Shown here: one piece after another, positions 19,996-64,000 of the stretch
Numbering within the stretch: position 1 is the first letter of the stretch
Layout of the letters: each line of letters starts with the position of its first letter
Assembly: GCA_017561155.1 (NCBI GenBank)
Contig: JAFZDP010000033.1
Location: forward strand, 1,007 to 65,006
Origin: Bacteroidales bacterium
Lineage (GTDB): Bacteria; Bacteroidota; Bacteroidia; Bacteroidales; P3
Reading direction: 5' to 3'
DNA length: 64,000 bases
The notes under the pieces: model-generated
Databases searched by the model: none
What the model saw: only the letters and a program-made list of their open reading frames with translations
What the model was told of the DNA's origin: nothing
Program-made: the position numbers and the translations under genes

Positions 19996-20077
19996 GTTTG
20001 CCGTTGCAATAGTATTCATTTTCTTCTAAAACACTTTTTACAGATGCTTACAACACTTTTTACTTTCTTCGGAAATG

Positions 20078-20399
20078 ATAGTATAGAAAGTGCTGTAGTT
20101 ATAGTATAGAGAGTGCTGAAATTATAGTATCGAATGTACTGAAGAGATTATAGAAAATACAGATTTACATGATAAAAAACCTGCACTTGCGATGTGAAAT
20201 ATTGGAATTTTAAATGTGATAAATAGGCTATTTTTCACATCAAAAAAGCCTATTTTTTATAATGCAAGTGGCACTTCGACACCATGCAAGTGGCTATTTC
20301 GCATTGTCTCTCCAATACTCTCGGTATTATATCTCCGGCACTTTCTGTACTATGTATACAATACTTTCGACACTATGTCGTTAGTACTTTGTAAAAAGT
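20078..20399. repeat. Inverted 4 x 23-bp arrays flanking a roughly 140-bp core, upstream of an HU-like gene
   Basis: Forward units ATAGTATAGAAAGTGCTGTAGTT occupy 20078-20169. Reverse units occupy 20308-20399; the reverse complement of unit 20331-20353 matches unit 1 at 19/23 by eye. The units contain the TATAGAAAG/TATAGAGAG core of the mosaic family. Confidence 0.85.
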
Positions 20400-20468
20400 G
20401 TTTCTGAACAAATAGAAAATTGTTTCAGAAGAAATAGAAAAGTAAAACAATACAAACCAACAATAATA

Positions 20469-20927
20469 ATGGCAATAGGATATTACAAACACAAACGCAA
20501 GATAAACGCAAATGGCACAGTAAAAGAAGTGTATGTGGCTAAGGTGGCACGCGCCAATGTGGTAGACATCGATATTTTGGCCGAGGAGATAGCTGCTACA
20601 TGCTCGGCATCGGAAGGCGATGTGCTGATGGTGTTGCGAAACATGGAAAGGGTTATAGAAAAACATATAGCCAAAAGCGATGTAGTGAAGTTGGACTCGC
20701 TGGGTACTTTTTCGCCCACGTTGCGAGCCAAAGTTGTTGATTCGCCCGACAAGGTGAACCAGTTTTCGATAATATCGACAGGCATAAACTTCAGGCCTAC
20801 CAAACGAATGCTTAGCGGTGTGCAAGATGCCGGAGTGCGGCTTGCCGACAAGCGAATACTTGTGCCGGCAGCCAGAGTAAAGGAAAAAGCAAAACAACAA
20901 CAGCAAGAAAACACAGAGGAACAATAA
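20469..20927 (+). CDS. HU-family (Bacteroidota HU_HIG-like) DNA-binding protein
   Basis: Pattern DILAEEIAATCSASEGDVLMVLRNMERVIEKHIAKSDVVKLDSLGTF resembles the HU fold, with a Lys/Gln-rich tail. Confidence 0.7.
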   Translation: MAIGYYKHKRKINANGTVKEVYVAKVARANVVDIDILAEEIAATCSASEGDVLMVLRNMERVIEKHIAKSDVVKLDSLGTFSPTLRAKVVDSPDKVNQFSIISTGINFRPTKRMLSGVQDAGVRLADKRILVPAARVKEKAKQQQQENTEEQ

Positions 20928-31016: not shown

Positions 31017-31090
31017 GGCCCCGTAGCTTAGCTGAATAGAGCGTCAGATTCCGGTTCTGAAGGTCGGGGGTTTGAATCCCTCCGGGGTCA
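31017..31090 (+). tRNA. tRNA-Arg (anticodon CCG)
   Basis: Hand-folded 74-nt cloverleaf. Acceptor GGCCCCG/CGGGGTC, D stem GCTT/GAGC, anticodon stem TCAGA/TCTGA with loop TTCCGGT, T arm GGGGG-TTTGAAT-CCCTC, discriminator A. CCA is not encoded. Confidence 0.93.
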
Positions 31091-31122
31091 CAACGATAGC
31101 ACTAACTAAAACGAAATATAAT

Positions 31123-31148
31123 AAAAGCCAACTGATTAGTTGGCTTTT
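31123..31148 (+). terminator. Terminator hairpin after the tRNA
   Basis: Stem AAAAGCCAACT pairs with AGTTGGCTTTT. Confidence 0.7.
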
Positions 31149-31266
31149 TGCTCCTACCACCTACGTCGGAAATGGTGGAATAGACTACAAAAGAACGGAA
31201 GAACCCAAAAGGTCTTCAGAAAAGAAACATTTATACAGTAACACATTAATATACGCATATATAACT

Positions 31267-32778
31267 ATGGATAGTATCGCAAAGAAAGTAGGTAAACACA
31301 AACGAATATCTTACGACGACGCTTTTGCCATCAACGGCAAAACGCCACCACAAGCGTTGGAGTTGGAAGAGTCGGTATTGGGAGCGTTGATGCTCGACCA
31401 AAACGCCTTGACCAATACCATCGAGATAATAAAGCCCGAATATTTTTACAAACCCGAACACCAAACTATATTCAAGGCTATCGTAGGATTGTTCGAAAAG
31501 TCGCAACCCGTCGATATACTTACCGTAGTGGATGCGTTGAGAAGTGCCGGCGAACTGGAATTGGCCGGTGGTGCATACTATGTGTCGCAGCTTACAAACC
31601 GTGTGGTGTCGGCAGCACATATCGAATACCACGCCCGTATACTTTCCGAAAAGTTTATACAACGAGAACTTATACGCGTTTCGACTGAAACGTTGACCGA
31701 GTCGTACGACGAAACTACCGATGTTATCGACTTGCTGGACAAGACCGAACAACGCCTGATGGATATTACCGAAAACAACTTTCGCCGCGACTATTCGAGC
31801 ATGAGCTCCATTATGAAGGTTGCCTACGACCAGATAGAAAAATCGCAGGCCAACGAGAGCGGTGTGAGCGGTATTCCTACAGGATTTATCGAGTTGGACC
31901 GTGCCACAGCAGGATTCCAACGCGGTACGCTTATCATCTTGGCAGCACGTCCTGCTATGGGTAAGACGGCTTTTGCATTGTCGTTGGCAAAGAATATGGC
32001 TTTGGATTTCGACAAGCCCGTGGCTTTCTTCTCGCTGGAAATGACTGCCGTAGAGTTGGCTATGCGTCTTATATCCAGCGAATCGGAGATAAAATCGGAA
32101 AAGTTCAAAAAAGGTGGATTGGAAGAGTGGGAAAAACAACAGCTGTACATGAAAACAGAACGCCTGAACAAGGCTCCGATATATATCGACGACACACCAC
32201 AGCTGACTATTTTCGAGTTGCGTGCAAAATGTCGTCGTCTGAAACAACGCTACGGCATAGAGATGGTGTTTATCGACTATTTGCAGCTTATGCATGGCGG
32301 ATCCGAGAGCAAAGGCGGAAACCGCGAACAGGAAATCAGTACCATATCGCGCCAGTTGAAGGCTTTGTCGAAGGAGTTGAACATTCCTATATTGGCACTT
32401 TCGCAGCTTAGCCGTGCCGTAGAAACTCGTGGCGGCGACAAGCGTCCGCAGTTGTCAGACCTTCGCGAATCGGGTGCAATAGAGCAGGATGCCGATATCG
32501 TAATGTTTATATATCGTCCCGAATACTATAATATAGACAGCGACGAAAAGGGTAGCACTTTGGGAAAAGCCGACATTATATTGGCTAAGCACCGTAGTGG
32601 ATCGACCGATACGATACGTTTGAGGTTTATCAAAAACTTTACTCGTTTCGAGAACGACACTTTCGAAATAGAGAATATGAACACTGGATTTGCTCCGAAC
32701 GAAAACTTCGACGGTGGTGGCATGCCTAGTCAGACATTCGAGTCGAAAATGAATGCCGACCAGGATGTGCCTTTTTAA
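31267..32778 (+). CDS. dnaB: Replicative DNA helicase DnaB
   Basis: PPQALELEESVLGALM, Walker A AARPAMGKTAF, IDYLQLM, LSQLSRAVE. The start is set at MDSIAKK because the track's start at 31072 overlaps the tRNA and its terminator. Confidence 0.95.
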   Translation: MDSIAKKVGKHKRISYDDAFAINGKTPPQALELEESVLGALMLDQNALTNTIEIIKPEYFYKPEHQTIFKAIVGLFEKSQPVDILTVVDALRSAGELELAGGAYYVSQLTNRVVSAAHIEYHARILSEKFIQRELIRVSTETLTESYDETTDVIDLLDKTEQRLMDITENNFRRDYSSMSSIMKVAYDQIEKSQANESGVSGIPTGFIELDRATAGFQRGTLIILAARPAMGKTAFALSLAKNMALDFDKPVAFFSLEMTAVELAMRLISSESEIKSEKFKKGGLEEWEKQQLYMKTERLNKAPIYIDDTPQLTIFELRAKCRRLKQRYGIEMVFIDYLQLMHGGSESKGGNREQEISTISRQLKALSKELNIPILALSQLSRAVETRGGDKRPQLSDLRESGAIEQDADIVMFIYRPEYYNIDSDEKGSTLGKADIILAKHRSGSTDTIRLRFIKNFTRFENDTFEIENMNTGFAPNENFDGGGMPSQTFESKMNADQDVPF

Positions 32779-32826: not shown

Positions 32827-32845
32827 CACTTTAAAATACTTGAAG

Positions 32846-33916
32846 ATGTTAGAGAAATTAGAAGCTATAAATATTCGTTTTCAGGAACTTGAACAAGAAA
32901 TGAATAATCCCGACATAATGTCGGATATGAAACGTTTTGTAAAACTAAACAAAGATTATAAAGACCTACAACCTGTTATAGTTGCCTACAAAGAATATAA
33001 AGATGTGTTGGGCAACATAGCCAATTGTAAAGAAATTCTTTCGACAGAAAAAGACGAAGAGTTTCGCGAAATGGCTAAATTGGAACTTTCCGAACTTACT
33101 ACTCGCCGCGAGCAAATGGAAGAAGATATTCGTTTGATGCTTATACCTGCCGACCCACAAGATGGTAAAAATGCTGTTGTGGAAATACGCGGTGGTACCG
33201 GTGGCGACGAAGCAAGCATATTTGCCGGCGACCTTTACAGAATGTATACCCACTACTGCGAAAAGAAAAACTGGAAAGTGGAAGTGGTGGACTATACCGA
33301 AGGTACTGCAGGTGGATACAAAGAAATAGTGTTCAACGTGATAGGCGAAAACGTATATGGTCAGTTGAAATACGAATCGGGTGTACACCGTGTGCAACGT
33401 GTGCCACAAACCGAAACACAGGGCCGTGTGCATACATCGGCAGCATCGGTGGTGGTGCTTCCCGAAGCCGAAGAGTTCGACGTAGAACTTAAACAATCGG
33501 ATATCCGCAAGGACACATTCTGTTCGTCGGGTCCGGGAGGTCAGTCGGTAAATACTACTTACTCGGCTATACGTCTTACCCACATTCCTACAGGTATAGT
33601 GGTGTCGTGCCAAGACCAAAAGTCGCAAATCAAAAACTTGGAAAAAGCGATGGTGGTGTTGCGTACTCGTTTGTTCGAAATGGAGTACAACAAATACTTG
33701 GAAGAAATGTCGTCGAAACGTAAAACTATGGTGTCGACAGGCGACCGTTCGGCAAAAGTTCGTACATACAACTATCCTCAAAGCCGTGTTACCGACCACC
33801 GTATAGGCTACACCATGTACAACCTTTCGGCATATATGGACGGTGATATACAAGACCTTATAGATGCTTTGCAACTTGCAGAAAATGCAGAACGCTTGAA
33901 AGAAGCTGTAGGTTGA
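32846..33916 (+). CDS. prfA: Peptide chain release factor 1
   Basis: [16 protein letters not shown] (PxT-type) and the [14 protein letters not shown] motif. Confidence 0.95.
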
Positions 33917-33951: not shown

Positions 33952-33999
33952 CTTTGTGTGTAGTGTCGATAAAATTGGCCTATGCACAAAGTTTTTTTT
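33952..33999 (+). terminator. prfA intrinsic terminator
   Basis: Stem CTTTGTGTGTAG pairs with CTATGCACAAAG (10/12), followed by T8. Confidence 0.7.
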
Positions 34000-34005
34000 G
34001 TTTTT

Positions 34006-34470
34006 GAGGGCTTCGCTGTCGCTTCGCAGACTTGTGCTTCGCTATCGCTTCGCAGACTAAGGGCAAAAGTATAGAAAGTATAGAAAGTAGAGAAGGTATA
34101 GAAAGTATAGAAAGTATAGAAAGGCTGTGAGCTACGAGTCATGAGTTATGAGCCGGCTTCGCCCTATCCGTGATTCCGTAGTTCCGTTAATCCATAATTC
34201 CGTGATTCCGTAAATCCGGCTACTGCTCTCCCTTTTGTCTTACGACTTTCGTCTTTTGACAGCGAAGCTCAATTTCCGTGATTCCGTAATTCCATAGTTC
34301 CATAATTCCGGCTACTGCCCTCCATTTTGTCTTACGACATTTGTCTTTTGTCGGCATAGCCACCGCGAAGCTACAACCGGCTGCTGCTCTCCATTTTGTC
34401 TTACGACTTTCGTCTTTTGACAGCAAAGCTCAATTTCCGTGATTCCGTAATTTCGGCGTAGCCTCAGTCT
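34006..34470. repeat. Mosaic microsatellite block D
   Basis: Two double-GCTTCGC headers and (TATAGAAAG)n in forward orientation, then reverse vocabulary (ATTCCGTA, CCGGCTAC, GTCTTACGAC, GCGAAGC). Confidence 0.95.
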
Positions 34471-34562
34471 GTTTGAAATGTTAAACTAGAAATGCTCAAT
34501 TCTTAAATTTTTGCTCTTTCTGAGAGTATGAAATATATGCCTGTTGGGACTCTCTGAAAAAT

Positions 34563-34640
34563 GACCCGCCCCTAAATTGATTTTCACCCGGGGTATTTTT
34601 AATTTTACCCCGCCCCTAAATGAATTTTACCCCGCCCTAT
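34563..34640. repeat. Three direct copies of a GC box, (T/G)ACCC(C)GCCCCTAAAT, in the AT-rich unique core
   Basis: Copies at 34563-34577, 34606-34621 and 34628-34640 (the last is shortened). The palindrome ACCCGGGGT lies between copies 1 and 2. Confidence 0.85.
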
Positions 34641-34867
34641 TTTTTAGTCGTTCCCGGATATGGTGTAAAAGGGAGTGATATGTGTGTTTAATATTTTGAT
34701 TAATAATTTATTATCTTTTTTGATGTTGCTTGTGACACTCATCGCTAAAGCATAGGATTTGATGCTTGATAGAAGTTTTTGAATTGTTAAAAATGCCCGT
34801 GTTAAAAATTCTTTAAATTGTTAAAAAGTACTCTGTTTGTTAGTTGGATATCTTTTTGATAATAGAC

Positions 34868-35354
34868 TTTGAGTGCTGAGCAATGAGTGGGGCGGCAGCC
34901 GGAACTGCGGAATAAGGGTATAGAGAGTATGGAGAGTATAGAGAGTATAGAGAGTATAGAGGGTATAGAGGGTATAGAGGGTTTCTCTATCTTCTCTACT
35001 TTCTGTACTTTTAAAGGACAACGGACTTTGGCTACGCCAAGACTACAAGACAACTAGTCAACGAGACCTTGGCTGTGCCAGACAACAAGACAACGAGTCT
35101 ACGAGACAAGTAGTAGGGCGGTGGTTGGAATCACGGAATAAGGGTATAGAGGGTATAGAGGGTATAGAGGGTATAGAGGGTATAGAGGGTATAGAGGGTA
35201 TAGAGAGTCTCTCTACTTTCTGTACCTTTCTATACCTTTTTTGTCCTTTGCCTTTTGCCTTTCGTCGTTAGTCGGCGAAGCGACAGCGAATCCGGCTCAA
35301 AGCTCGTAGCTTGTTGCTCACAGCTAATCCGTCTGCGAAGCGATAGCGAAGTCC
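34868..35354. repeat. Mosaic microsatellite block E
   Basis: (GTATAGAGG)7 at 35144-35206 and a second 9-mer run at about 34917-34980. The block ends in reverse-orientation double-GCTTCGC headers (35273-35352). Confidence 0.95.
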
Positions 35355-35403: not shown

Positions 35404-35411
35404 TACCTTTG
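35404..35411 (+). promoter_or_regulatory. -7 box TACCTTTG
   Basis: 22 nt upstream of the ATG at 35433. Confidence 0.6.
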
Positions 35412-35432: not shown

Positions 35433-37487
35433 ATGCAATTTATAAATCCCTTATATTTAATAGGTTTGCTAGCGGTGGTAATACCTATACTTGTACACCT
35501 TTTCAATTTTAGGCGCTACAAGAAAGTATACTTCAGCAATGTGGCAATGTTGCAACAGCTACAAAGTCAAAACAAGAAGCAATCTCAGTTGAAGCATAGG
35601 TTAATATTGTTGTGTAGGCTTTTGGCTGTCGTGTTTATAGTGTTGGTATTTGCACGTCCGGTGTTGGTAGACGATGATAAGGCTGTGAATACGGGAGGGG
35701 TGTCGTATGTGAGTGTGTATCTTGACAACTCGTTCAGCATGGAAAACACCGCTACATCGGGAACACTGCTCGACGCTGCCAAACGCAAAGCCTACGAGAT
35801 AGCCGATGCTTACAAGCCGTCGGACTATATGCAGCTTATAACAAACGATATAGAGCCACGACATTTTAGATTCCTATCGCCACAGGAGTTTAAAAACATG
35901 GTAGACGAAGTGGAGATATCTGCTGCTTCCGAACAAATATCAGGTATGTTGGAAAAGCAGTACAACTATTTGAACTCTAACGCATACAACGGGGAAAAAC
36001 GAGTATATGTGGTGTCGGATTTTCAGACGTCGTTAAATAGTTTTGAGAATTACCCTACCGACGAAGAAATATCGACGGTGTTGGTTCCATTGCAGTCGCA
36101 ACAAATAGCCAATATATATACAGACAGTGTGGCGTTGAGTACTCCGTTTTTGCACCGTGGTGCTGTTGTAGTGGCAAATGTGTGGGTGAAAAACACAGGA
36201 GCGTCGGCAGTAGAGAAAGTGCCTGTGAAACTTTTTGTAAACGACAAGCAACGTGCATTGGCATCGGCCGATATACCGGCAAACAGCACACAGGTAGTAC
36301 CCTTGACGTTTACGATAGACGACGGAGAACATCTGGCTTGCAGGGTGGAAACCAGCGACTATCCGATAGTGTACGACGATAAGTTCTACTTCAGCATCAA
36401 CGTAAGGAAGCAGACACGGGTGCTGATGATAAACAACAAATCGGAAAACAAGTATTTGAATATGTTGTTTGATACCGATTCGGCTTTCGTTGTAGAAAAT
36501 CAGTATGCAAAAGCTATAGACTACGACGAGATAGGAAGTTTTGATATGGTGTTGCTCAACGAGTTGGAAGTGTTGCCAAGCGGATTGGTACAAAATCTTA
36601 CTGCTTTTTGCAACGAGGGAGGCAGTATTGTGGTGGTGCCGTCGGACAATGCCGATATGCAATCGTATGCCGCTGCTTCTCGGGAATGGAAAATGCCGAT
36701 ACTGTCGGGACTGCAACAGGCAGCACCACTGAAGGGTCGCGACATAAATGTAGAGCACAGGCTGTACGACGGGGTGTTCGAGAATCGTAAAACAAACGAT
36801 ATGGAAACACTGACTGTGCACAAGTATTTCAAGACACAGTACGATGCAAACACTATAAAGGAAAGCTTGATACAATTGGAGAACGGAGATGATTTTCTGT
36901 GTGTTACTCCAATGGGTAAAGGTAGCGTATACTTGTTTTCTACAGCCATGCAGCCCTCCAATACCGACTTTGTAAAGCAGGCGTTGTTTGTGCCTACGTT
37001 GTACAATATGGCATTGTATAGCAGTCCGTTGTCGATATTGTATCAAATCATGGCTCCAATCAACAGTATAGAACTTGCACATCCTATTGTAGGCGACAAA
37101 GTGATACCTAAGTTGGTGAAAGATGATGATGGATTTGAGATAATACCCGAGCTGAAAAAACAGGGCGATAATATGTATATAAGTGTTCACAATCAGGTGA
37201 AAACAGCCGGTAGTTATACCTTGACTATAGAAGGAAAAGGAGTAGAGTCGATGTCGTTTAACCACGACAGAAGCGAGTCGGTGATGGAGTTTGCCACAGC
37301 GGGTACCATAAAAAAAGAGATAGAAAACTACAATCTGAACAACTATAAGGTGGTAGAAAACATAGACAAGCCACTGTCTGCATTGATAGCAGCCGAGAGT
37401 GATGGCGTGCAGCTGTGGAAGCTGTGTTTGGTGATAGCTCTACTCTCGCTACTGGCAGAAATGCTTATAGTAAGACTTTGGAAATAG
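35433..37487 (+). CDS. BatA-domain (aerotolerance-related N-terminal) membrane protein
   Basis: N-terminus MQFINPLYLIGLLAVVIPILVHLFNFRR is typical of the BatA_N family. VWA-like middle region and a C-terminal TM helix. Confidence 0.7.
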   Translation: MQFINPLYLIGLLAVVIPILVHLFNFRRYKKVYFSNVAMLQQLQSQNKKQSQLKHRLILLCRLLAVVFIVLVFARPVLVDDDKAVNTGGVSYVSVYLDNSFSMENTATSGTLLDAAKRKAYEIADAYKPSDYMQLITNDIEPRHFRFLSPQEFKNMVDEVEISAASEQISGMLEKQYNYLNSNAYNGEKRVYVVSDFQTSLNSFENYPTDEEISTVLVPLQSQQIANIYTDSVALSTPFLHRGAVVVANVWVKNTGASAVEKVPVKLFVNDKQRALASADIPANSTQVVPLTFTIDDGEHLACRVETSDYPIVYDDKFYFSINVRKQTRVLMINNKSENKYLNMLFDTDSAFVVENQYAKAIDYDEIGSFDMVLLNELEVLPSGLVQNLTAFCNEGGSIVVVPSDNADMQSYAAASREWKMPILSGLQQAAPLKGRDINVEHRLYDGVFENRKTNDMETLTVHKYFKTQYDANTIKESLIQLENGDDFLCVTPMGKGSVYLFSTAMQPSNTDFVKQALFVPTLYNMALYSSPLSILYQIMAPINSIELAHPIVGDKVIPKLVKDDDGFEIIPELKKQGDNMYISVHNQVKTAGSYTLTIEGKGVESMSFNHDRSESVMEFATAGTIKKEIENYNLNNYKVVENIDKPLSALIAAESDGVQLWKLCLVIALLSLLAEMLIVRLWK

Positions 37488-44378: not shown

Positions 44379-44594
44379 ATTGCACAGTGTCGGTTATCGG
44401 TTTCTAATTGTATTATAAACAACGGAGGACGGTAGCCGACACATTGCTTTATGGCAAGCCGATTTTTAAAACCTACCTACAATCACCCCAAAATTTTAAT
44501 GATAGACTTGTTTTCTTTTTGATGTTTTTTAATAAATTTTCATACACTAAAAAACACATTCCATCGTTATGAAAAGACCTTTAAAGAGGTGTTC

Positions 44595-44683
44595 GGAGAA
44601 GATTCCAATCTTCTTTTGAGAACATTGGAGTCTTCTCCGGAGAACATTGGAGTCTTCTCCAGAGAAGATTGGAGTCTTCTCGA
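44595..44683. repeat. Four tandem 22-23 bp units, each an imperfect hairpin (GAGAACATTGGAGTCTTCTCCG)
   Basis: Units at 44595, 44618, 44640 and 44662; about 115-200 nt upstream of the HU-like gene at 44797. Confidence 0.85.
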
Positions 44684-44796
44684 AGGAAGATTACAATGCT
44701 TGAAAATCAAGCATTTATGATTTGAGAAAAAACTCCGAGAACATCACTCTTTGAAAGGTAAGTATCTTTAGTTATTAACCAATAATATTTAAGACT

Positions 44797-45300
44797 ATGG
44801 CTTTTTATTCAAAAAAGTATGTAAAGCTTACCGAAAAATGGATACCCGTATCCAAAACCGTAAGTTGCTACGATGCCAAGCGTTTGGCAAAAGACATTGA
44901 AAAGGAAAGCACCGTAAGCCAAACCGATGTAATGGCAGTGCTAAATGCAATTCCCACAGTGATGACACGCTATTTGGCCGAGGGACATTCGGTGAAATTA
45001 GATGGGATAGGCTCGTTTTTCTTAACCTTCGAGTGCAAGAAAACCGGTGTGGACACTCCGGAAGAAGTGTCGATGGACCAAGTGACTAACATCAAGGTTC
45101 AGTTTCGTCCGGCTATGAAAGGCGGAAGTATGAAAGGCAAATTCAACAACACTCTTATCGCCGACGATATAGAGTGGACCTATCTGCCATCAACCAAGGG
45201 CGAGAGCTTCGACGACGATGCAGAGGAAAACGAAGGCACAAACAACGAGCAAGGCACCCAAGGCGGAAACAATTCCGGTGACGGTGGCTTTGAAGGCTGA
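44797..45300 (+). CDS. HU-family (HU_HIG-like) DNA-binding protein with acidic/Gly tail ending GGFEG
   Basis: DVMAVLNAIPTVMTRYLAEGHSVKLDGIGSFFLT is an HU-like core; the tail is ..EENEGTNNEQGTQGGNNSGDGGFEG. Confidence 0.7.
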   Translation: MAFYSKKYVKLTEKWIPVSKTVSCYDAKRLAKDIEKESTVSQTDVMAVLNAIPTVMTRYLAEGHSVKLDGIGSFFLTFECKKTGVDTPEEVSMDQVTNIKVQFRPAMKGGSMKGKFNNTLIADDIEWTYLPSTKGESFDDDAEENEGTNNEQGTQGGNNSGDGGFEG

Positions 45301-55140: not shown

Positions 55141-55646
55141 GAGCTTCGCTATTGCTTCGCAGACTAAGGGCAAAAGACAAAAGTCTAAAGGGTATAGAGA
55201 GTATAGAAAGTATAGAGAGTATAGAAAGTGGGTTTCGCTGTCGCTTCGCAGACTAAGGGCAAAGGGCAAAAGTCTAAAGGGTATAGAGAGTATAGAAAGT
55301 ATAGAGAGTATAGAAAGTGGGCTTCGCTGTCGCTACGCAGACTAAGGGCTAAGGGCAAAAGTCTAAAGGGTATAGAGAGTATAGAGAGTATAGAGAGTAT
55401 AGAGAGTATAGAGAGTATCGAAAGTGGGCTTCGCTGTCGCTTCGCAGGCTAAGGGCAAAAGGCAAAAGGCAAAGGACAAAAGTCTAAAGGGTATAGAAAG
55501 TATAGAAAGGCTACGAGCTGTGAGCTTTGAGCCACTTCGCCCTATCCGTGATTCCGTAGTTCCATAATTCCGTAGTTCCGTTAATCCATAATTCCGTAAT
55601 TCTATCAATCCGTAGTTCCGTAATTCCGGCTTCGCCTCCGTTGTCT
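55141..55646. repeat. Mosaic microsatellite block G with an 89-bp higher-order tandem repeat
   Basis: Units start at 55141, 55230, 55319 and 55426, giving lengths 89, 89 and 107 (89 + 2 x 9). A reverse (ATTCCGTA)-type half follows. Confidence 0.95.
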
Positions 55647-57911: not shown

Positions 57912-58215
57912 TATGCTTCGCTGTCGCTCAGTAGACTAAGGGCAAAAGACAAAAGGCAAAGGGCAAAAGTCTAAAGGGTATAGAAAGTATAGAAAGGCTA
58001 CGAGCTGTGAGCTTTGAGCCACTTCGCCCTATCCGTGATTCCGTAGTTCCATAATTTCGTGATTTCGTAAATCCGTAGTTCCGTTAATCCATAATTCCGT
58101 GATTCCGTAAATCCGTAAATCCGTAGTTCCATAATTCCGGCTACCGCCCTTCCTTTTGTCTTACGACATTTGTCTTTTGTCCGGCGTAGCACCGCGAAGC
58201 CATGGTCTGTTGTCC
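57912..58215. repeat. Mosaic microsatellite block H
   Basis: 57964-58056 is identical (93/93 by eye) to 55477-55569 of block G, in the same orientation. Confidence 0.95.
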
Positions 58216-58216
58216 A

Positions 58217-58257
58217 TAAAAAAACTAGAGTCAACGGAAATATCCATCGACTCTAGT
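58217..58257 (-). terminator. Terminator of the HU-like gene
   Basis: Stem ACTAGAGTC pairs with GACTCTAGT. The A-run on the plus strand gives a T-run on the minus strand. Confidence 0.7.
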
Positions 58258-58307
58258 TAGGGGCTTGTCGTTACTCAATGGTAAAAAGCCAATAGTTTTA
58301 AAAAGGT

Positions 58308-58925
58308 CTATCCTTCAAAACCGCCGCCACCTTGGTTGGTGTTGCCACTATCACCATTGTCCGGAGATGTGTTGGAATTGTTGTCATCGTCATCGTCGTC
58401 GTCCTCATTGTCGTCGGTGATGTCGATTATCTCAGATTCGCCACCTTTGATTTTGGAATAAAGTTTTTCAGTACGGATAGGATTGCCATCGGCATCTCGC
58501 TCCAATACACGTTCGCCTACTATTTCGTAAACGCCCTCCAATTCGCAATCAATTTTGGCCAAATCTTCTTTCAAATCGGTTGAAGGAAGAAAACGAATTT
58601 TGAAATCCACCAGTTGGCGTATTCCTGCTGCTTCCAAATTGTCGGTGGCAGTGCTTTCGCAAGTAATGCGGAATGTACCTAAGTTAGGAAATTCCACACT
58701 ATGACCATTCAACAAAAAATTGCGGATGGATTGCGTAAGTGCATGCATGGATGCAGACACATAGGCAGGTGGTACCATCGAGTTTTGGGTGCAATACTCC
58801 AAGATGTCTTTGCTAGACATAGTGGTGTAGCGTACAGGGCGTAAAACAAAACCCTTAGAAATTTTTTGGCTTCCGCCAACATTGTAAATGTTCTGCTCTT
58901 TGGCAGTCAAAAGAATTTTTCCCAT
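58308..58925 (-). CDS. HU-family (HU_HIG-like) DNA-binding protein with poly-Asp / Gly tail ending GGFEG
   Basis: DILEYCTQNSMVPPAYVSASMHALTQSIRNFLLNGHSVEFPNLGTFRIT is an HU-like core; the tail is ..DDNEDDDDDDDNNSNTSPDNGDSGNTNQGGGGFEG. Confidence 0.7.
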   Translation of the reverse strand: MGKILLTAKEQNIYNVGGSQKISKGFVLRPVRYTTMSSKDILEYCTQNSMVPPAYVSASMHALTQSIRNFLLNGHSVEFPNLGTFRITCESTATDNLEAAGIRQLVDFKIRFLPSTDLKEDLAKIDCELEGVYEIVGERVLERDADGNPIRTEKLYSKIKGGESEIIDITDDNEDDDDDDDNNSNTSPDNGDSGNTNQGGGGFEG

Positions 58926-59120
58926 TTTCTTTCTTTTTTTTATGGGATTTTTTGGAAGGACCTCAGTTATACAACGAATATCATGACGAGGTCTGCCACA
59001 ATATCTCTTTTTTATTTTACGGAACTTTAGCTTTTAGCCATTGGCTTTTGGTTTAACTGTCGCAGTCTGATTGTTATTGCTTGCATATCAAAAAGCTAAC
59101 AGTCAAATACTAAAGTTGCC

Positions 59121-59408
59121 TTATATTTGTTTTATGCTTATAACGCGAGGGTCGTTGTAGAAATTATTTTTAGGTTCCGAAATCCTATTATAATACACTA
59201 CTTCTACCATCATACCGTCGCAACCGGCATAGTTTACATTATCGCCATTGCAGGTTAGTATCAAATTATTCTCCAATCCCGACACATTGGTGTTCGATTG
59301 TACCCATAGTTTTGCAGCTTTGATTGGTTTTCCATCTCTATCGTTTCCTATCGTAGTCACCATCGATTTCACGATTCGTCCTCTAAATGTTTCTTTTTTG
59401 AATTTCAT
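59121..59408 (-). CDS. Hypothetical protein (95 aa)
   Basis: ORF with a TAATTTTG box about 118 nt upstream. No family recognised. Confidence 0.45.
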   Translation of the reverse strand: MKFKKETFRGRIVKSMVTTIGNDRDGKPIKAAKLWVQSNTNVSGLENNLILTCNGDNVNYAGCDGMMVEVVYYNRISEPKNNFYNDPRVISIKQI

Positions 59409-59525
59409 ATCTACTATTTATATTTGAAAAAAAATTATCGTCGTTACACAAATTATCAAGCCTAAATATTCTTCAAACAATATGCTATCTATTAATTGAT
59501 TAGCATGTTTGTTTTTATTCGATTG

Positions 59526-59533
59526 CAAAATTA
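59526..59533 (-). promoter_or_regulatory. -7 box TAATTTTG (minus strand)
   Basis: Plus strand reads CAAAATTA. Confidence 0.45.
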
Positions 59534-59810
59534 CTAATATTTCGTCACATACCTAAATTTAAGATATTAACAAGTGGTGATAAAAAAGGGAAAAAACTTG
59601 ATTGTGAATTATATATATGCTAATAACATCCTTTTTTTTTTTCTATATTTTTCTTGTTTTGAGTAGATTGAGATAAAAATGATTTCTTGTTTTTTTGTAG
59701 TTTTTTGATTTGAAGTTGCAAACATAGATAATATTGTTTTTTAGCGCAAATTGAATGTTAATTTCATGGTTAATAACTGTTAATAAAGTAGCGTATATAA
59801 CCCTCAAAAA

Positions 59811-59893
59811 AAATGGGTACCCATTTGTCGAAAAATGGGTACTATATTTGGGAAAAATGGGTACCCATTTCGTATGTAAATGGGTACCCATTT
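59811..59893. promoter_or_regulatory. Phased array of a perfect 16-bp palindrome AAATGGGTACCCATTT (3 exact copies + 1 half-degenerate)
   Basis: Copies start at 59811, 59833 (degenerate right half), 59855 and 59878, so spacing is 22, 22 and 23 bp. The array lies in a 740-bp region with no credible ORF. Confidence 0.85.
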
Positions 59894-60145
59894 TTGGATT
59901 ATATAGTACTATCCGGAACAAAATATAGTGGGGATATGAAAAATAATAGATTATTTGAAATTTAAATTCTTGAATATTAGAGTGTTTTGATTTTTTTGAA
60001 AAATGTTTTTTTTATGGTCGATAGTGCCGGTGTTTTATTTTTGTGAGCCAAATATATGGATAAAATGCATAGTTGTAAATGTTAAAATACATACTTGTGC
60101 AAATGTATTATTATGCAGTTGCAATATCCGTCTTTTTGTAAAGAG

Positions 60146-60545
60146 ATGTATAGAAAGTAGAGAACGGTTGTGAGGCATGATCCGGTTTCGCTTTGCTACG
60201 CCAATACTAAAAGCAAAGGTCGTAAGACAAAAGGAGGGCGGTAGCCGAAGCTACGGAATTACGGAATAGAGGGTATAGAGAGTATAGAGAGTATAGAGAG
60301 TATAGAAAGTATAGAGAGTATAGAGAGTATAGAGAGTATAGAGAGTCTCTCTACTTTCTGTACCTTTTTGGGGACAACGGACTACGGACAACAGACAACA
60401 GTCGGGCGGTAGCCGGCTCAAGGCTCACAGCTCGTAGCTCATAGCTACTCCGTCTGCGAAGCGTAAGCGAAGCACCAGCGGCAGCCACTTGTAGTCTCGT
60501 AGTCTTGTAGACTAGTAGTCTCGTAGACTCGTAGTCGGCGAAGTA
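60146..60545. repeat. Mosaic microsatellite block I
   Basis: (GTATAGAGA)8 at 60273-60344, the shared junction GTATAGAGAGTCTCTCTACTTTCTGTACC, then reverse vocabulary (GCGAAGC, GTAGTCTCGTAGTC). Confidence 0.95.
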
Positions 60546-60912: not shown

Positions 60913-63900
60913 ATGAGAAAAATACTTGGATTAGACCTTGGCACCAATAGTATTGGATGGGCAGTGATAGAGGCAGAAGATAACGAACTTGTAGAAATAT
61001 TGGGAATGGGAAGTAGAATAATTCCGTTGACTACAGACGAATCGAACGAATTTTCTACCGGTAATGCTATTTCTAAAAACCAAAAACGAACAGAGAAACG
61101 TACTACTCGTAAGGGATATGACAGGTATCAACAGCGACGAATAAATTTGACTCTTAAACTTAGAGAGTTGAATATGTTGCCCGATGAGCAATTGATAAAA
61201 TTGCCGGTATTAGAACTTTGGCAACTAAGAGCAAATGCGGCTACTAATGGTTGCAAACTGAGTTTGGCAGAGATAGGCAGAGTGCTTTATCATCTAAACC
61301 AAAAACGAGGATATAAGCATGCCAAAGCCGACGAAAACTCTGATAAAAAACAACGTGAATACGTTGCCAACATAAACAATAGATATACTCATATACAAGA
61401 ATTGGGCAAAACTATTGGTCAATACTTTTTTGATAATCTGAAAGATAACGAAGTGACAACCGAAAAGGGAAAATTCTATACATATCGTATAAAAGATCAA
61501 GTGTTTCCACGCAAGGCATACGAGGCTGAGTACGACCAAATAATGGAATGTCAAAAAGAATTTTATCCCGATATACTAACCGATGAGGTTATAGACGAAA
61601 TACGCAACGAAATAATATACTATCAACGCAAACTAAAATCGTGCAAACACCTTGTTTCGCTATGCGAATTCGAGAAGCGAAAATACATAAACAAAGAGGG
61701 AAAAGAAGTGTATGATGGGCCAAAGGTGGCTCCAAAGTCGTCGCCACTATTCCAAGTGTGTAAGATATGGGAAAGTGTAAATAACTTAACCTTAAAGAAT
61801 AGACGAAACGATGAACTATATATATCGGCAGAGCAACGCAAAGCAATGTTCGACTTTTTGAATGAAAACGAAAAGATGACACTGACCGATATGTATAAAA
61901 TACTAAACATTACCAAAGCCGACGGTTGGTGGGGTGGAAAAGCTATTGGCAAAGGTTTGCAAGGTAATACTACAAAGATGCAACTTCGTAAAGCTCTTTC
62001 AAATATTGAAGGTGCTGATGAATTGTTGAAGTTTGATTTGACTACGATAAATATCGATAAAGTTAATACTGAAACAGGAGAAATATTGAAAGTAGTAAGT
62101 CCCGATTTTGAAAAAGAACCTTTATATAAACTTTGGCATACCATATATTCTATTCAAGATAAAGAGGAGCTAAGAAATGTCCTTGCAAAGAACTTTAATA
62201 TTACCGACGAAGAAACTATAAACGCACTATTTGCAATAGATTTTGTAAAAGCCGGTTTTGGCAATAAGTCGTCGAAGTTTATGCGTAGAATATTACCGTA
62301 TCTTCAAGAGGGCGAAAAATATAGCAAGGCTTGCGAATATGTAGGTGTAAACCACTCTAATAGCATAACAACGGCCGAAAACGAAGCCCGTACATTACTT
62401 GCCAAACTTCCTCAAATTCAGAAAAACGAATTGCGTCAACCGGTGGTTGAAAAGATACTTAACCAAATGGTTAATGTAGTAAATGCTATTATAGATAAAT
62501 ATGGAACAATAGACGAAATAAGGGTAGAGCTTGCCAGAGAGTTGAAGCAAAGCAAAGATGAGCGTAATGAAACTGACAAGCGAATGAGAAATAGTCAAAA
62601 AGAAAATGAAAATATTGCAAAAAGAATAGAAGAATATGGCATTCGTTCCTCTCGTAATAAAATACAAAAATATAAGATGTGGGTCGAAGCCGAAGAGAAA
62701 TGTTTCTACTGTGGGCAACCTGTTAATGTTACTGAATTTTTAAAAGGAGATAATATAGAAATAGAACACATTATACCAAAGTCGTTGTATTTTGATGATA
62801 GTTTTTCTAACAAAGTATGTTCGTGCAAAAAATGTAACCAAGAGAAAAACAATCGCACTGCATACGACTATATGAAAACCAAAGGCGAAGAAGCTTTTAA
62901 TGAATATGTGAAACGAGTAGAACGATACTATGAAGCCAAGAAAATATCGAAAACCAAAAGAGAGCGACTACTTACCCCTACGGATAAAATACCAAACGAT
63001 TTTATAGATAGACAATTAAGAGAAAGTCAATATATAGCCCGCAAATCGGCAGAGATGTTGCGATTGGTATGTCGCAATGTTTGGACCACAAGTGGTAGTA
63101 TTACCGACTTTTTGAGACACAACTGGGGATACGATGAAATACTACACTCTGTAAACCTTGAACGCTATCAGCTTGGAGGACTTACCGAAATGGTAGAGTA
63201 TGAACACAAAGGCCAGAAACATACCGAAGAAAGAATAAAAGAATGGACAAAACGTCTGGACCACAGACATCATGCTATAGATGCTTTGGTAGTGGCTTGT
63301 ACCAGACAAAGCTACATTCAACGCCTAAACAACTTGAACACCGAAAGAGATGTAATGTTCGAAGAAGTTGAAAAACAAGGAGCTGAATGGAAAGAAAAAC
63401 TATCGTTGCTTAACAAGTGGGTTTCTATTCAACCTCACTTCCCGGTAGATGTGGTGAGGAACAAGGTGGAAGAAATACTTGTATCGTTCAAGTCCGGAAA
63501 GAAGGTGACAACTTCAGGCAGGCGTGTAGTATACAAACATGGTAAAAAGGTTGTGATGCAATCGGATATACTTGTGCCTCGTGGTAGCCTAAGCGAAGAA
63601 AGTGTTTATGGCAAAATAAAGACAATAGAAGAAAAGAAACCTATTAAATATATATTCGAACATCCGGATTTGATTTTCAAACCATATATAAAGAAGTTGG
63701 TAGAAGATAGACTGAAGATGTTTGATGGCGATAGCAAAAAGGCGATAGCTTCGTTGAAAAAAGAGCCTATTTATCTGAGAGAAGATAAATCTGCAGTATT
63801 GGAATATGCCACATGCTACAAAGAAGAATACGTAATTAAGTATCCTTTGAATTCGTTGAAGGCCAAAGATACTGAATATATAACTGATAGTAAGATAAAA

Positions 63901-64000
63901 GAAATAGTAAAACAACGATTGCTTGAACACAACAACAACGAGAAGATAGCTTTTAGTACTCCGTTGTATGCCGATGCAAATAATAAGATAGAAATAAAAA
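60913..64000 (+). CDS. cas9: Cas9 (type II-C, Bacteroidota-like); 3' end lies outside the window
   Basis: Absent from the ORF track because no stop falls in the window; my hand translation stays open from 60913 to 64000. RuvC-I MRKILGLDLGTNSIGWAV, RuvC-II IDEIRVELAREL, HNH CFYCGQ..EIEHIIPKS..CKKCNQEKNNRTAYDY, RuvC-III LDHRHHAIDALVVA. Confidence 0.93.
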   Translation, partial: MRKILGLDLGTNSIGWAVIEAEDNELVEILGMGSRIIPLTTDESNEFSTGNAISKNQKRTEKRTTRKGYDRYQQRRINLTLKLRELNMLPDEQLIKLPVLELWQLRANAATNGCKLSLAEIGRVLYHLNQKRGYKHAKADENSDKKQREYVANINNRYTHIQELGKTIGQYFFDNLKDNEVTTEKGKFYTYRIKDQVFPRKAYEAEYDQIMECQKEFYPDILTDEVIDEIRNEIIYYQRKLKSCKHLVSLCEFEKRKYINKEGKEVYDGPKVAPKSSPLFQVCKIWESVNNLTLKNRRNDELYISAEQRKAMFDFLNENEKMTLTDMYKILNITKADGWWGGKAIGKGLQGNTTKMQLRKALSNIEGADELLKFDLTTINIDKVNTETGEILKVVSPDFEKEPLYKLWHTIYSIQDKEELRNVLAKNFNITDEETINALFAIDFVKAGFGNKSSKFMRRILPYLQEGEKYSKACEYVGVNHSNSITTAENEARTLLAKLPQIQKNELRQPVVEKILNQMVNVVNAIIDKYGTIDEIRVELARELKQSKDERNETDKRMRNSQKENENIAKRIEEYGIRSSRNKIQKYKMWVEAEEKCFYCGQPVNVTEFLKGDNIEIEHIIPKSLYFDDSFSNKVCSCKKCNQEKNNRTAYDYMKTKGEEAFNEYVKRVERYYEAKKISKTKRERLLTPTDKIPNDFIDRQLRESQYIARKSAEMLRLVCRNVWTTSGSITDFLRHNWGYDEILHSVNLERYQLGGLTEMVEYEHKGQKHTEERIKEWTKRLDHRHHAIDALVVACTRQSYIQRLNNLNTERDVMFEEVEKQGAEWKEKLSLLNKWVSIQPHFPVDVVRNKVEEILVSFKSGKKVTTSGRRVVYKHGKKVVMQSDILVPRGSLSEESVYGKIKTIEEKKPIKYIFEHPDLIFKPYIKKLVEDRLKMFDGDSKKAIASLKKEPIYLREDKSAVLEYATCYKEEYVIKYPLNSLKAKDTEYITDSKIKEIVKQRLLEHNNNEKIAFSTPLYADANNKIEIK

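What the first reader, a model, noticed from the sequence alone, without database searches (positions are those of the whole stretch)
34006..35354. 1.5-kb gene-free spacer between prfA and the BatA-like gene: two repeat blocks with inverted terminal headers enclosing a 400-bp unique core
The interval from the prfA terminator (33999) to the next promoter box (35404) holds no credible ORF. Block D starts with forward double-GCTTCGC headers (34008-34057). Block E ends with the same headers reversed (35273-35352). The reverse complement of 35331-35352 matches 34036-34057 at 21/22. The 1.35-kb unit therefore has terminal inverted headers around a unique AT-rich core (34471-34867). That core carries three GC boxes and two AATTGTTAAAAA copies (about 34781 and 34817). 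This is MITE-like or composite-element-like geometry inside an otherwise tightly packed housekeeping region. The core could be cargo such as an ncRNA, a binding platform or an origin-like site.
Basis: seen in the sequence. Interest (0 to 1): 0.6.

Follow-up and report, generated by a model that had tools for sequence, protein, structure and literature searches.

The report
Orphan iteron module between repeat blocks
The gene-free spacer is not one mobile element: two clusters of this gut bacterium's common micro-repeats flank a conserved 390-base non-coding module that elsewhere lies upstream of HU-like DNA-binding-protein genes, at a spot where strains carry different DNA.

Summary
There is no credible gene between prfA and the BatA-like gene. 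The outward-facing GCTTCGC headers form a 21/21 inverted match, and the AT-rich core is unique in the window.

The MITE or composite-element reading fails.
- Blocks D and E are two separate clusters of a repeat family dispersed through this genome.
- Every strain allele of the prfA-BatA interval keeps the outermost header on each side. This holds whether the interval carries the 0.4-kb core, a 7.4-kb gene island or other genes.
- There is no target-site duplication and no header-less empty site.
- Copies of the core found elsewhere have no repeat blocks beside them.

The core (34474-34864) is a discrete conserved module:
- a GAAATGTTAAAC box;
- a variable AT-rich stretch;
- TGTTAAAA boxes.

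In three other loci its homologue lies 430-690 bp upstream of, and divergent from, an operon of a small ORF plus an HU-HIG gene. All three HU-HIG genes in the window have analogous 22-23-bp arrays upstream.

I found no conserved RNA structure, no Rfam family and no match in plasmids or phages. My best reading is an orphan protein-binding control region of an HU-HIG cassette, sitting in a repeat-bounded, strain-variable slot. That function is inferred, not shown.

The parts
33953..33999 (+). prfA terminator-like hairpin followed by a T run. It is conserved in all strain alleles.
   Evidence: Read from the sequence. Invariant columns in alignment A1. The consensus terminator scan did not call it, because the loop is too long for its rule.
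34008..34470 (+). Block D, a cluster of the dispersed mosaic micro-repeat family. In order it holds a double header, (AAAGTATAG) x6.4, a GCTnnGAGCT run, GGCTTCGCC, TCCGTRAT runs and three 81-nt units.
   Evidence: D2, D3, D4, D8. Similar module series occur at 55143-55640 and 57915-58210. Logan contig depth is 5-25 times the single-copy depth.
34010..34058 (+). Two forward headers, GCTTCGCTRTCGCTTCGCAGACT. The outer copy is kept in all five alleles compared on the prfA side.
   Evidence: (D8).
34474..34864 (+). The core: a conserved non-coding module, orphan here. Its homologues lie upstream of operons of a small ORF plus an HU-HIG gene.
   Evidence: nhmmer envelope. Homologues are L054 (77% identity), L063 (80%), L057 (62%) and L053 (59%). 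The core is 100% identical in five contigs of the same allele.
34476..34487 (+). Left box GAAATGTTAAAC, nearly invariant in all five homologues. It marks the left end of the homology.
   Evidence: Alignment A4.
34558..34645 (+). Array of four 22-bp direct units, consensus ATTTTACCCCGCCCCTAAATSA. Unit 2 is a palindromic variant, CACCCGGGGTA.
   Evidence: D7 spacing 44, D10 spacing 22. TRF finds period 22 in the homologues. This is the most conserved part of A4. It is multi-copy in gut metagenomes, with several different right-hand continuations.
34782..34827 (+). Right boxes: AATTGTTAAAAA, GTGTTAAAAA and AATTGTTAAAAA. Their position is conserved in L054, L057 and L053.
   Evidence: (D9).
34868..35352 (-). 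Block E, a second cluster of the same repeat family with its headers at the BatA-side edge. It holds (GTATAGAGR) arrays at 34918-34979 and 35141-35205, each followed by its complement (hairpins), and GACAACG-type 40-nt units at 35019-35107.
   Evidence: D1, D2, D5, I4, I8. A similar series lies at 60130-60545. The hairpins explain the sub-threshold miRNA-family hits in Rfam. Single 9-nt unit losses at 34954-62 and 35141-49 distinguish strains. Allele homology breaks at 35208 and at 35331.
35271..35352 (-). Two reversed headers, at 35271-35293 and 35331-35352. The outer one is kept in all four alleles compared on the BatA side.
   Evidence: (I5, I6).
35404..35411 (+). TACCTTTG box, a Bacteroidota-type -7 promoter motif (TAnnTTTG), 21 nt before the BatA-like start at 35433. 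It is invariant in all alleles.
   Evidence: Sequence and alignment A2. The motif assignment rests on established knowledge of Bacteroides promoters.

Best explanation
The 1.35-kb 'unit' is a mosaic of three independent parts. It sits in a strain-variable slot between prfA and the BatA-like gene.

(1) Blocks D and E are two separate clusters of this species' dispersed micro-repeat family. In such clusters the GCTTCGC header usually lies at the edge that adjoins a gene. Two clusters facing each other therefore look like terminal inverted repeats. The outermost header on each side is a fixed part of the flank. Everything between the headers is exchanged between strains. The points where alleles stop being alike lie inside the repeats, which marks the repeats as the places where recombination joins different DNA. 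Within one allele the blocks change only by gain or loss of single 9-nt units (slippage).

(2) The core is an orphan copy of a conserved module of about 390 bp. The module has one GAAATGTTAAAC box, three or four 22-bp direct GC-box units (two helical turns apart, so on one face of the DNA), a variable AT-rich stretch and TGTTAAAA boxes. Elsewhere this module lies a few hundred bp upstream of the promoter of a divergent operon of a small ORF plus an HU-HIG gene.

Most likely the module acts as DNA, not RNA. It would be an iteron-like platform that a sequence-specific protein binds cooperatively. The binding protein may be a product of the cassette itself. The platform would control or organise the cassette.

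In this strain the genes are missing and block D takes their place. The module here is either a relic or a stand-alone binding or decoy site.

Shown: the anatomy, the strain alleles, the homology, and the linkage to HU-HIG in other loci.
Inferred: protein binding, the regulatory role, and loss of the genes.
For: Dispersed family.
- Headers and modules recur at 1398-1700, 5952, 55143-55640, 57915-58210 and 60130-60545.

Strain alleles, all with BatA in the same 90%-identity cluster or with an identical prfA protein.
- The window type (L037/L044, L038, L045, L046) has an identical core and differs only by 9-nt unit losses.
- L052 carries a 7.4-kb island between prfA and BatA: an HU-HIG gene, ORFs of 95 and 49 aa, two unknown ORFs and a GajB-like UvrD helicase.
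- L039 has clpX and AbiEi/AbiEii to the left of BatA.
- L047, L051 and L036 differ again.
- All alleles keep the outer headers.
- Homology with the window resumes at 35208 or 35331 and ends at 34030.

Core homologues.
- They are L054, L053, L063 and L057/L058.
- In L054, L063 and L057/58 the module lies 430-690 nt upstream of, and divergent from, a 110-112-aa ORF followed by an HU-HIG gene.
- None of these loci has mosaic repeat modules.

Promoter. A TAACTTTG box preceded by a TTG lies 155-174 nt before the small ORF in L054 and L063. It is outside the module.

Shared architecture. A 22/23-nt array, then 150-190 nt, then an AAATGTTAAAA box occurs upstream of the window's own HU-HIG cassette and of the L052 island cassette.

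Arrays and HU-HIG genes. All three HU-HIG genes of the window have a 22-23-nt array within about 100-400 nt upstream. The only other such array that TRF reported lies inside a long ORF.

Constraint. The module is 73-77% identical between L054 and the window or L063. The small-ORF DNA is 67-68% identical and the leader 54-57%.

Not RNA. The RNAalifold consensus energy is -4.2 kcal/mol on one strand and -1.6 on the other, with unfavourable covariation terms.
Against: - No binding protein has been identified, and no experiment exists.
- Burroughs et al. 2017 (PMC5499826) argued that HU-HIG proteins are unlikely to be sequence-specific and lack conserved gene linkage.
- Two of the five homologous loci (window and L053) have no HU-HIG gene nearby. 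The module may therefore have a role of its own unrelated to HU-HIG.
- The module lies 250-500 bp from the operon promoter, which is far for a simple operator.
- The single-sequence fold of the plus strand is somewhat better than shuffles (z = -2.8).
- RNA data were too thin to exclude transcription.
- Loss of the operon genes here is inferred. The island cassette in L052 has a different array and no sequence similarity to the core. The window allele is therefore not a simple deletion derivative of that island.
Confidence: 0.6

Rival explanations
1. The whole 34008-35352 stretch is one non-autonomous mobile element (MITE-like or composite). The headers are its terminal inverted repeats and the core is its cargo. 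It inserted between prfA and the BatA-like gene.
For: The inverted headers match 21/21, with weaker inverted similarity over about 30-40 nt (I1-I6). The interval is variable between strains.
Against: - The outer headers are present in every allele, including those without the core.
- No target-site duplication: the flanks read ...TTTTGAGG and CCTGACCA....
- No second copy of the unit exists in the window.
- Core homologues elsewhere lack headers and modules.
- The two blocks change independently by unit slippage.
- The same headers occur singly or in tandem at other spacers without an inverted partner.
Confidence: 0.04
2. The core encodes a small non-coding RNA. It would be transcribed rightwards from the end of the GC-box array, or leftwards, and would act in trans or on the neighbouring operon.
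For: - The module is a conserved non-coding sequence in several genomes.
- The plus-strand single-sequence fold has z = -2.8.
- A near-consensus TATTTTTK box at the end of the array keeps its position in all five homologues.
Against: - No Rfam family matched.
- No conserved structure or covariation on either strand.
- There is no exact TAnnTTTG box at a conserved position and no intrinsic terminator.
- The middle of the module is replaced in L057 while the boxes and the array are kept. That pattern fits protein sites rather than an RNA body.
- The direct G+C-rich repeats cannot pair with one another.
- No RNA contigs cover the core, but the organism is barely present in the RNA runs.
Confidence: 0.1
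3. The module is a relic or working cis-site of a mobile replicon. It would be an iteron-type origin, a partition (centromere-like) site, or the arm-site region of an integrative element. HU-HIG cassettes would then be the remains of that element.
For: - 22-bp direct iterons lie next to an AT-rich stretch.
- The cassette moves between loci in different strains: the L052 island cassette is 84-86% identical to window 58218-59018.
- The variable slot also receives defence-type genes.
Against: - No rep, par, integrase or transposase gene lies next to any of the five copies.
- No match in plasmids, phages or viral contigs.
- No DnaA-box-like word was seen by eye.
- GC skew keeps the same sign on both sides, so this is not the chromosomal origin.
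Confidence: 0.1
4. The core in this window has no function. It is a decaying leftover of a cassette's upstream region, trapped between two repeat clusters.
For: - No operon is attached here, and block D occupies the place of the leader and genes.
- Other alleles of the slot lack the core altogether and still keep the BatA promoter.
- Its 100% identity among same-allele strains carries no information, because their flanks are equally identical.
Against: - All recognisable parts of the module are intact: left box, four units and right boxes.
- Its ends coincide with the ends of homology in the other orphan copy, L053. This suggests a complete unit rather than a random fragment.
Confidence: 0.15

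Closest known systems
REP / BIME clusters of enterobacteria and pseudomonads (for blocks D and E)
   Same: - They are extragenic.
- They are built from short G+C-rich hairpin-prone motifs combined in mosaic clusters.
- They have many copies per genome and vary between strains.
- They lie after terminators and between operons.
   Different: - Here the clusters consist mainly of 7-9-nt tandem arrays (GTATAGARA, TCCGTAAT, GACAACG, GGCAAAAG) joined by GCTTCGC-type motifs.
- They have a polar layout with the header at the gene-side edge.
- They occur in Bacteroidales.
STRR short tandemly repeated repetitive sequences of heterocystous cyanobacteria
   Different: They come from a different phylum and have different units. 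Here several unit types are concatenated in recurring series with headers and mark the borders of strain-variable cassettes.
Iteron or operator arrays, and centromere-like direct repeats upstream of the operon of their own binding protein (for example plasmid iterons, or parC with ParR)
   Same: Three or four direct repeats lie about two helical turns apart, next to AT-rich DNA. In three of the five homologous loci they lie upstream of an operon that encodes a DNA-binding-fold protein.
   Different: - No initiator or partition ATPase gene is present.
- The location is chromosomal.
- The array is 430-690 bp from the ORF and outside the promoter region.
- The binding protein is unknown.
- The copy in this window has no operon.
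MITEs
   Same: It is non-coding, has inverted sequences at its two ends, and lies between genes.
   Different: - No target-site duplication.
- The ends are retained whatever lies between them.
- The unit is not repeated as a whole.
- At 1.35 kb it is long for a MITE.

Membership tests
MITE | Terminal inverted repeats | tested here: met
   21/21 complementary, 34037-34057 against 35331-35351 (I6).
MITE | Target-site duplication directly outside the inverted repeats | tested here: not met
   The flanks read ...GTTTTTGAGG and CCTGACCAAC..., with no direct repeat.
MITE | Empty sites that lack the element, its ends included, in related strains | tested here: not met
   Five alleles on the prfA side and four on the BatA side all keep the outer header, while the interior differs.
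MITE | Many copies of the whole unit in the genome | tested here: inconclusive
   There is no second copy in the 64-kb window. Copies of the core in other loci have no blocks beside them.
Composite transposon | Two flanking insertion sequences that encode transposase | tested here: not met
   The blocks hold no ORF beyond frames that read through repeats.
REP / BIME-like repeat clusters | Extragenic mosaic clusters of short repeated motifs, many per genome | tested here: met
   Headers and modules occur at six or more spacers in the window. The header pattern matches 11 times against 0 expected.
REP / BIME-like repeat clusters | A cognate RAYT (IS200/IS605-like Y1 transposase) in the genome | not testable with these tools
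Iteron-type replication origin | Direct repeats of about 17-22 bp at helical-turn spacing | tested here: met
   Four 22-bp units at 34558-34645. TRF finds period 22 in L053, L054 and L057.
Iteron-type replication origin | An adjacent initiator (rep) gene, and occurrence on plasmids or phages | tested here: not met
   The neighbours are prfA, BatA, yebC, DUF5606, lipoprotein genes and HU-HIG. No hit in plasmids, phages or viral contigs.
Small RNA gene | Conserved secondary structure with covariation | tested here: not met
   RNAalifold gives -4.18 and -1.63 kcal/mol, with covariation terms of +2.54 and +0.37. Only five sequences were available.
Small RNA gene | Transcription with defined ends | tested here: inconclusive
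   No RNA run holds the core. In the three runs that hold parts of prfA, the organism is covered only at depth 2-5, and the core has depth 0-1.
Upstream control region of HU-HIG cassettes (proposed here, not a curated family) | The homologous module lies upstream of, and divergent from, an operon of a small ORF plus an HU-HIG gene | tested here: met
   Seen in L054, L063 and L057/L058. Not seen in L053 or in the window itself, which are orphan copies.
Upstream control region of HU-HIG cassettes (proposed here, not a curated family) | A cassette protein binds the 22-bp units | not testable with these tools
   This needs EMSA, DAP-seq or ChIP. The AlphaFold model of the 95-aa protein was too poor to use (pLDDT 54).

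The most novel reading that the evidence does not exclude
HU-HIG cassettes may be exchangeable three-part modules: a small all-beta protein, a fast-evolving HU-HIG protein, and a cognate array of 22-23-bp iterons flanked by TGTTAAA boxes. Each HU-HIG paralogue would recognise its own array. That would contradict the published inference that these proteins are not sequence-specific. The cassettes would move between slots bounded by the mosaic repeats. Orphan arrays like this one would persist as decoy or anchoring sites for a paralogue encoded elsewhere in the genome.
Probability: 0.2. Interest if true: 0.7.

Novelty: new variant of a known kind. Interest (0 to 1): 0.45.

Why it matters
The result removes a false mobile-element call. 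It also replaces that call with two points that can be tested.

First, in this uncultured ruminant- and human-gut Bacteroidales lineage, the mosaic micro-repeats mark fixed borders of slots whose content differs between strains. The contents seen include defence-type genes, HU-HIG cassettes, or only a non-coding module. This offers a handle on how gene content is shuffled there.

Second, HU-HIG proteins are a large, fast-evolving Bacteroidota family with no known function and no reported gene linkage (PMC5499826). Here a small ORF repeatedly sits in front of them, and conserved 22-bp direct-repeat arrays lie upstream. The paired small ORF and its module were traced in metagenomic contigs of uncertain relatedness. 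The arrays are candidate binding sites, so the question of whether HU-HIG proteins are sequence-specific can be tested directly by EMSA or DAP-seq.

Tried and rejected
The copy number of the core and the presence of a RAYT gene could not be established.
- Rfam: only sub-threshold miRNA-family hits on the GTATAGAGG hairpin at 35158-35255, none in the core.
- Species-level relatives: the nearest other BatA lineage is 55% identical and has MatE upstream with a 55-nt spacer. There is no synteny and no informative empty site.
- RNA evidence: no run holds the core. The three runs with traces of prfA are too shallow to use.
- Chromosomal origin: rejected, because GC skew has the same sign on both sides and the genes do not diverge here.
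- Mobile replicon: no match in plasmids, phages, IMG/VR viral contigs or JGI metagenome contigs.
- Degraded gene in the core: all ORFs are 33 aa or shorter. The homologues keep no reading frame, since indels are scattered through them.
- GTDB genome scans with three GC-box patterns found only two genomes, L053 and L054. Two further hits, in a Sutterella MAG and an Ardenticatenaceae MAG, match only the 19-mer and are chance.
- Structure of the 95-aa cassette protein: the model is all-beta but has pLDDT 54. I did not take it to a fold search.
Only indirect depth evidence remains. The variant contig has 0.9-1.4 times the strain's depth in X1, X2 and X4. In X3, two variant contigs sum to about twice the strain's depth. 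BatA shows no second variant in X1-X3.
- Literature searches for such repeats, or for iterons near histone-like genes in Bacteroides, found nothing relevant.
Full report
**1. What is in the sequence**

The window comes from an uncultured gut Bacteroidales genome. The stretch is held by ruminant and other gut metagenomes. The cluster's only named protein is labelled 'MAG: Bacteroidales bacterium'.

DnaB (31072-32778) and prfA (32840-33916) lie to the left. A BatA/VWA protein (35433-37487) lies to the right. Between them are 1,516 nt with no credible ORF. No gene is called there on the identical public contig.

- Forward double headers lie at 34010-34058.
- Reversed headers lie at 35271-35293 and 35331-35352, with a 21/21 inverted match (D8, I5, I6).
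- Tandem arrays of 8-9-nt units fill both blocks.
- The AT-rich core is unique within the window.
- The header pattern is far above chance: 11 matches against 0 in shuffles.

**2. The blocks belong to a dispersed family**

The same headers and modules occur in similar series at 1398-1700, about 5952, 55143-55640, 57915-58210 and 60130-60545. The modules are GGCAAAAG, GTATAGARA, GCTnnGAGCT, TCCGTAAT, CTTTTGTCTTACGAC and GACAACG.

Logan contig depth over the blocks is 5-25 times that of the flanking single-copy genes.

In most clusters the header sits at the edge that adjoins a gene, for example directly after the terminator at 55143 and at 34010. Two clusters facing each other therefore give outward-facing headers without being one element.

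An earlier agent of this scan had already described the family (e1-3033473). My data agree with its statement that the clusters sit where gene content differs between strains.

**3.

I fetched contigs that encode BatA proteins of the same 90% cluster, or the identical prfA protein. The prfA-BatA interval turned out to be a strain-variable slot.

| Allele | Loci | Content between or beside the flanks |
|---|---|---|
| Window type | L037/L044, L038, L045, L046 | Block D, core, block E |
| Island | L052 | 7.4-kb island between prfA and BatA |
| clpX junction | L039 | clpX and an AbiEi/AbiEii pair to the left of BatA |
| Others | L047, L051, L036 | Different content again |

- Window type: the core is 100% identical in all five contigs. 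The only differences are losses of single 9-nt units at 34954-62 and 35141-49.
- L052 island: an HU-HIG gene, ORFs of 95 and 49 aa, two unknown ORFs and a GajB-like UvrD helicase.
- Homology with the window stops at 34030 on the left. It resumes at 35208 or 35331 on the right, in both cases inside the repeats.
- Every allele keeps the outermost header next to the prfA terminator and next to the BatA promoter (alignments A1 and A2).
- There is no target-site duplication.

The headers are therefore constant flank features and not the ends of an insertion. The MITE or composite reading is rejected.

The nearest other BatA lineage is 55% identical. It has a different upstream gene and a 55-nt spacer, so it tells us nothing about an empty site.

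**4. The core is a conserved module**

Metagenome contigs first showed that the core exists as variants of about 85-90% identity. They also showed that its GC-box part is multi-copy, with several different right-hand continuations.

Pattern scans of GTDB genomes found two homologues:
- L054, a human-gut Bacteroidales MAG;
- L053, a water-buffalo rectum MAG.

A protein-guided search then found L063 and L057/L058. L063 matches, at the positions I checked by eye, the variant seen in runs X1-X4.

Homology to the window runs from 34474 to 34864, which is exactly the core.

Conserved parts (alignment A4):
- the box GAAATGTTAAAC;
- three or four 22-bp direct units, ATTTTACCCCGCCCCTAAATSA (TRF period 22 in L053, L054 and L057);
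- right-hand boxes TTGTTAAAA...TTAAAA...TCTTTAAAYT.

The stretch between the array and the right boxes is replaced in L057.

None of these loci carries any mosaic repeat module. The core and the blocks are therefore independent.

**5. Link to HU-HIG cassettes**

In L054, L063 and L057/L058 the module lies 430-690 nt upstream of, and divergent from, a 110-112-aa ORF followed by an HU-HIG gene.

That HU-HIG protein is 65% identical to the window's HU-HIG at 58308-58925. The small ORF is a distant homologue of the window's 95-aa ORF at 59121-59408.

A Bacteroidota-type -7 box preceded by a TTG lies 155-174 nt before the small ORF. It is outside the module.

The window's own cassette and the L052 island cassette have the same upstream architecture, but the array sequence differs (AAATGGGTACCCATTT). 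The layout is a 22/23-nt array, then 150-190 nt, then an AAATGTTAAAA box, then TTGCA motifs.

All three HU-HIG genes of the window have an array of period 22-23 within about 100-400 nt upstream. Of the arrays of that period that TRF reported, the only other one lies inside a long ORF.

The GC-box array of the core scored too low for TRF to report. It is thus the one intergenic array of this class in the window without an HU-HIG gene. Its orientation puts the missing operon on the prfA side, where block D now lies. That is the same orientation as the cassette occupying this slot in L052.

L053 is a second orphan copy, between yebC and a DUF5606 gene.

**6. RNA or DNA?**

- No Rfam family matched.
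- RNAalifold gives -4.2 and -1.6 kcal/mol on the two strands, with unfavourable covariation terms.
- There is no exact promoter box at a conserved position and no terminator.
- The direct G+C-rich units cannot pair with one another.
- The conservation pattern is boxes and array kept while the sequence between them is free. This is what protein-binding sites show.
- The module is somewhat better conserved (73-77%) than the adjacent small-ORF DNA (67-68%) and much better than the leader (54-57%).
- RNA runs were too shallow to say anything about transcription.
- There is no plasmid, phage or viral match and no rep, par or integrase neighbour. GC skew does not change sign. A replication origin is therefore unlikely.

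**7. Reading**

Most likely (confidence 0.6) the interval has three parts:
- two independent repeat clusters that mark the fixed borders of a strain-variable slot;
- between them, an orphan copy of the iteron-like control region of an HU-HIG cassette, acting, if it acts at all, as a protein-binding DNA platform.

The anatomy, the alleles, the homology and the linkage are shown. Binding, a regulatory role and gene loss are inferred.

The published view of HU-HIG proteins is that they diverge fast, lack conserved linkage and are probably not sequence-specific (PMC5499826). That view does not predict cognate arrays or the paired small ORF. This is what gives the finding some novelty.

**8. Limits**

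- Only five homologues were available for the structure test.
- Whether the operon-linked L063-type copy lies in the same genome as the window rests only on similar contig depths.

Noticed in passing
window 58218-60124; L052 2808-4594: The HU-HIG cassette at 58.2-60.1 kb consists of an HU-HIG gene, a 95-aa ORF and the upstream array. It is itself bounded by mosaic blocks at 57915-58210 and 60130-60545. It is 84% identical (HU-HIG part) and 69% identical (the rest) to the cassette that occupies the prfA-BatA slot in strain L052. Related cassettes therefore sit in different repeat-bounded slots in different strains.
   Followed up: partly
window 20072-20143 and 20394-20443; 44593-44697; 59809-59893: All three HU-HIG genes of the window (20469-20927, 44797-45300, 58308-58925) have a tandem array of period 22-23 nt within about 100-400 nt upstream. 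Each array has a different unit sequence.
   Followed up: partly
L057 3295-3475 and 2715-2890: In L057 the core-type module is flanked by a direct repeat of about 180 nt. Each copy begins with a TGTTAAAGG box. This suggests a local duplication or insertion event at these boxes.
   Followed up: no
L052 5088-9156: The island in the prfA-BatA slot of strain L052 carries two unknown ORFs (192 and 228 aa) followed by an 871-aa UvrD-type helicase. The helicase matches GajB and DRT-associated helicase models. This is a candidate defence module.
   Followed up: partly
L039 1096-4428: In strain L039 the gene to the left of BatA is clpX, preceded by an AbiEi/AbiEii pair, with mosaic blocks between them. 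The BatA junction therefore joins quite different chromosomal neighbourhoods in different strains.
   Followed up: partly
window 34600-34647 (metagenome runs X1, X4, X8, X9): Contigs that share the last two GC-box units continue rightwards in at least six different ways. Their summed depth is about 5-15 times that of single-copy DNA. A wider family of GC-box arrays therefore exists in ruminant gut communities, although only two GTDB species representatives carry it.
   Followed up: partly
window 62583-62641: A 22-nt periodic repeat lies inside a long open reading frame (60913-63999, open at the window's end). It is a coding repeat, unlike the intergenic arrays.
   Followed up: no
window 35158-35255: The (AGGGTATAG)x7 array and its complement form a long perfect hairpin. 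The hairpin draws sub-threshold hits to several microRNA families in Rfam. These are artefacts of the hairpin shape.
   Followed up: yes
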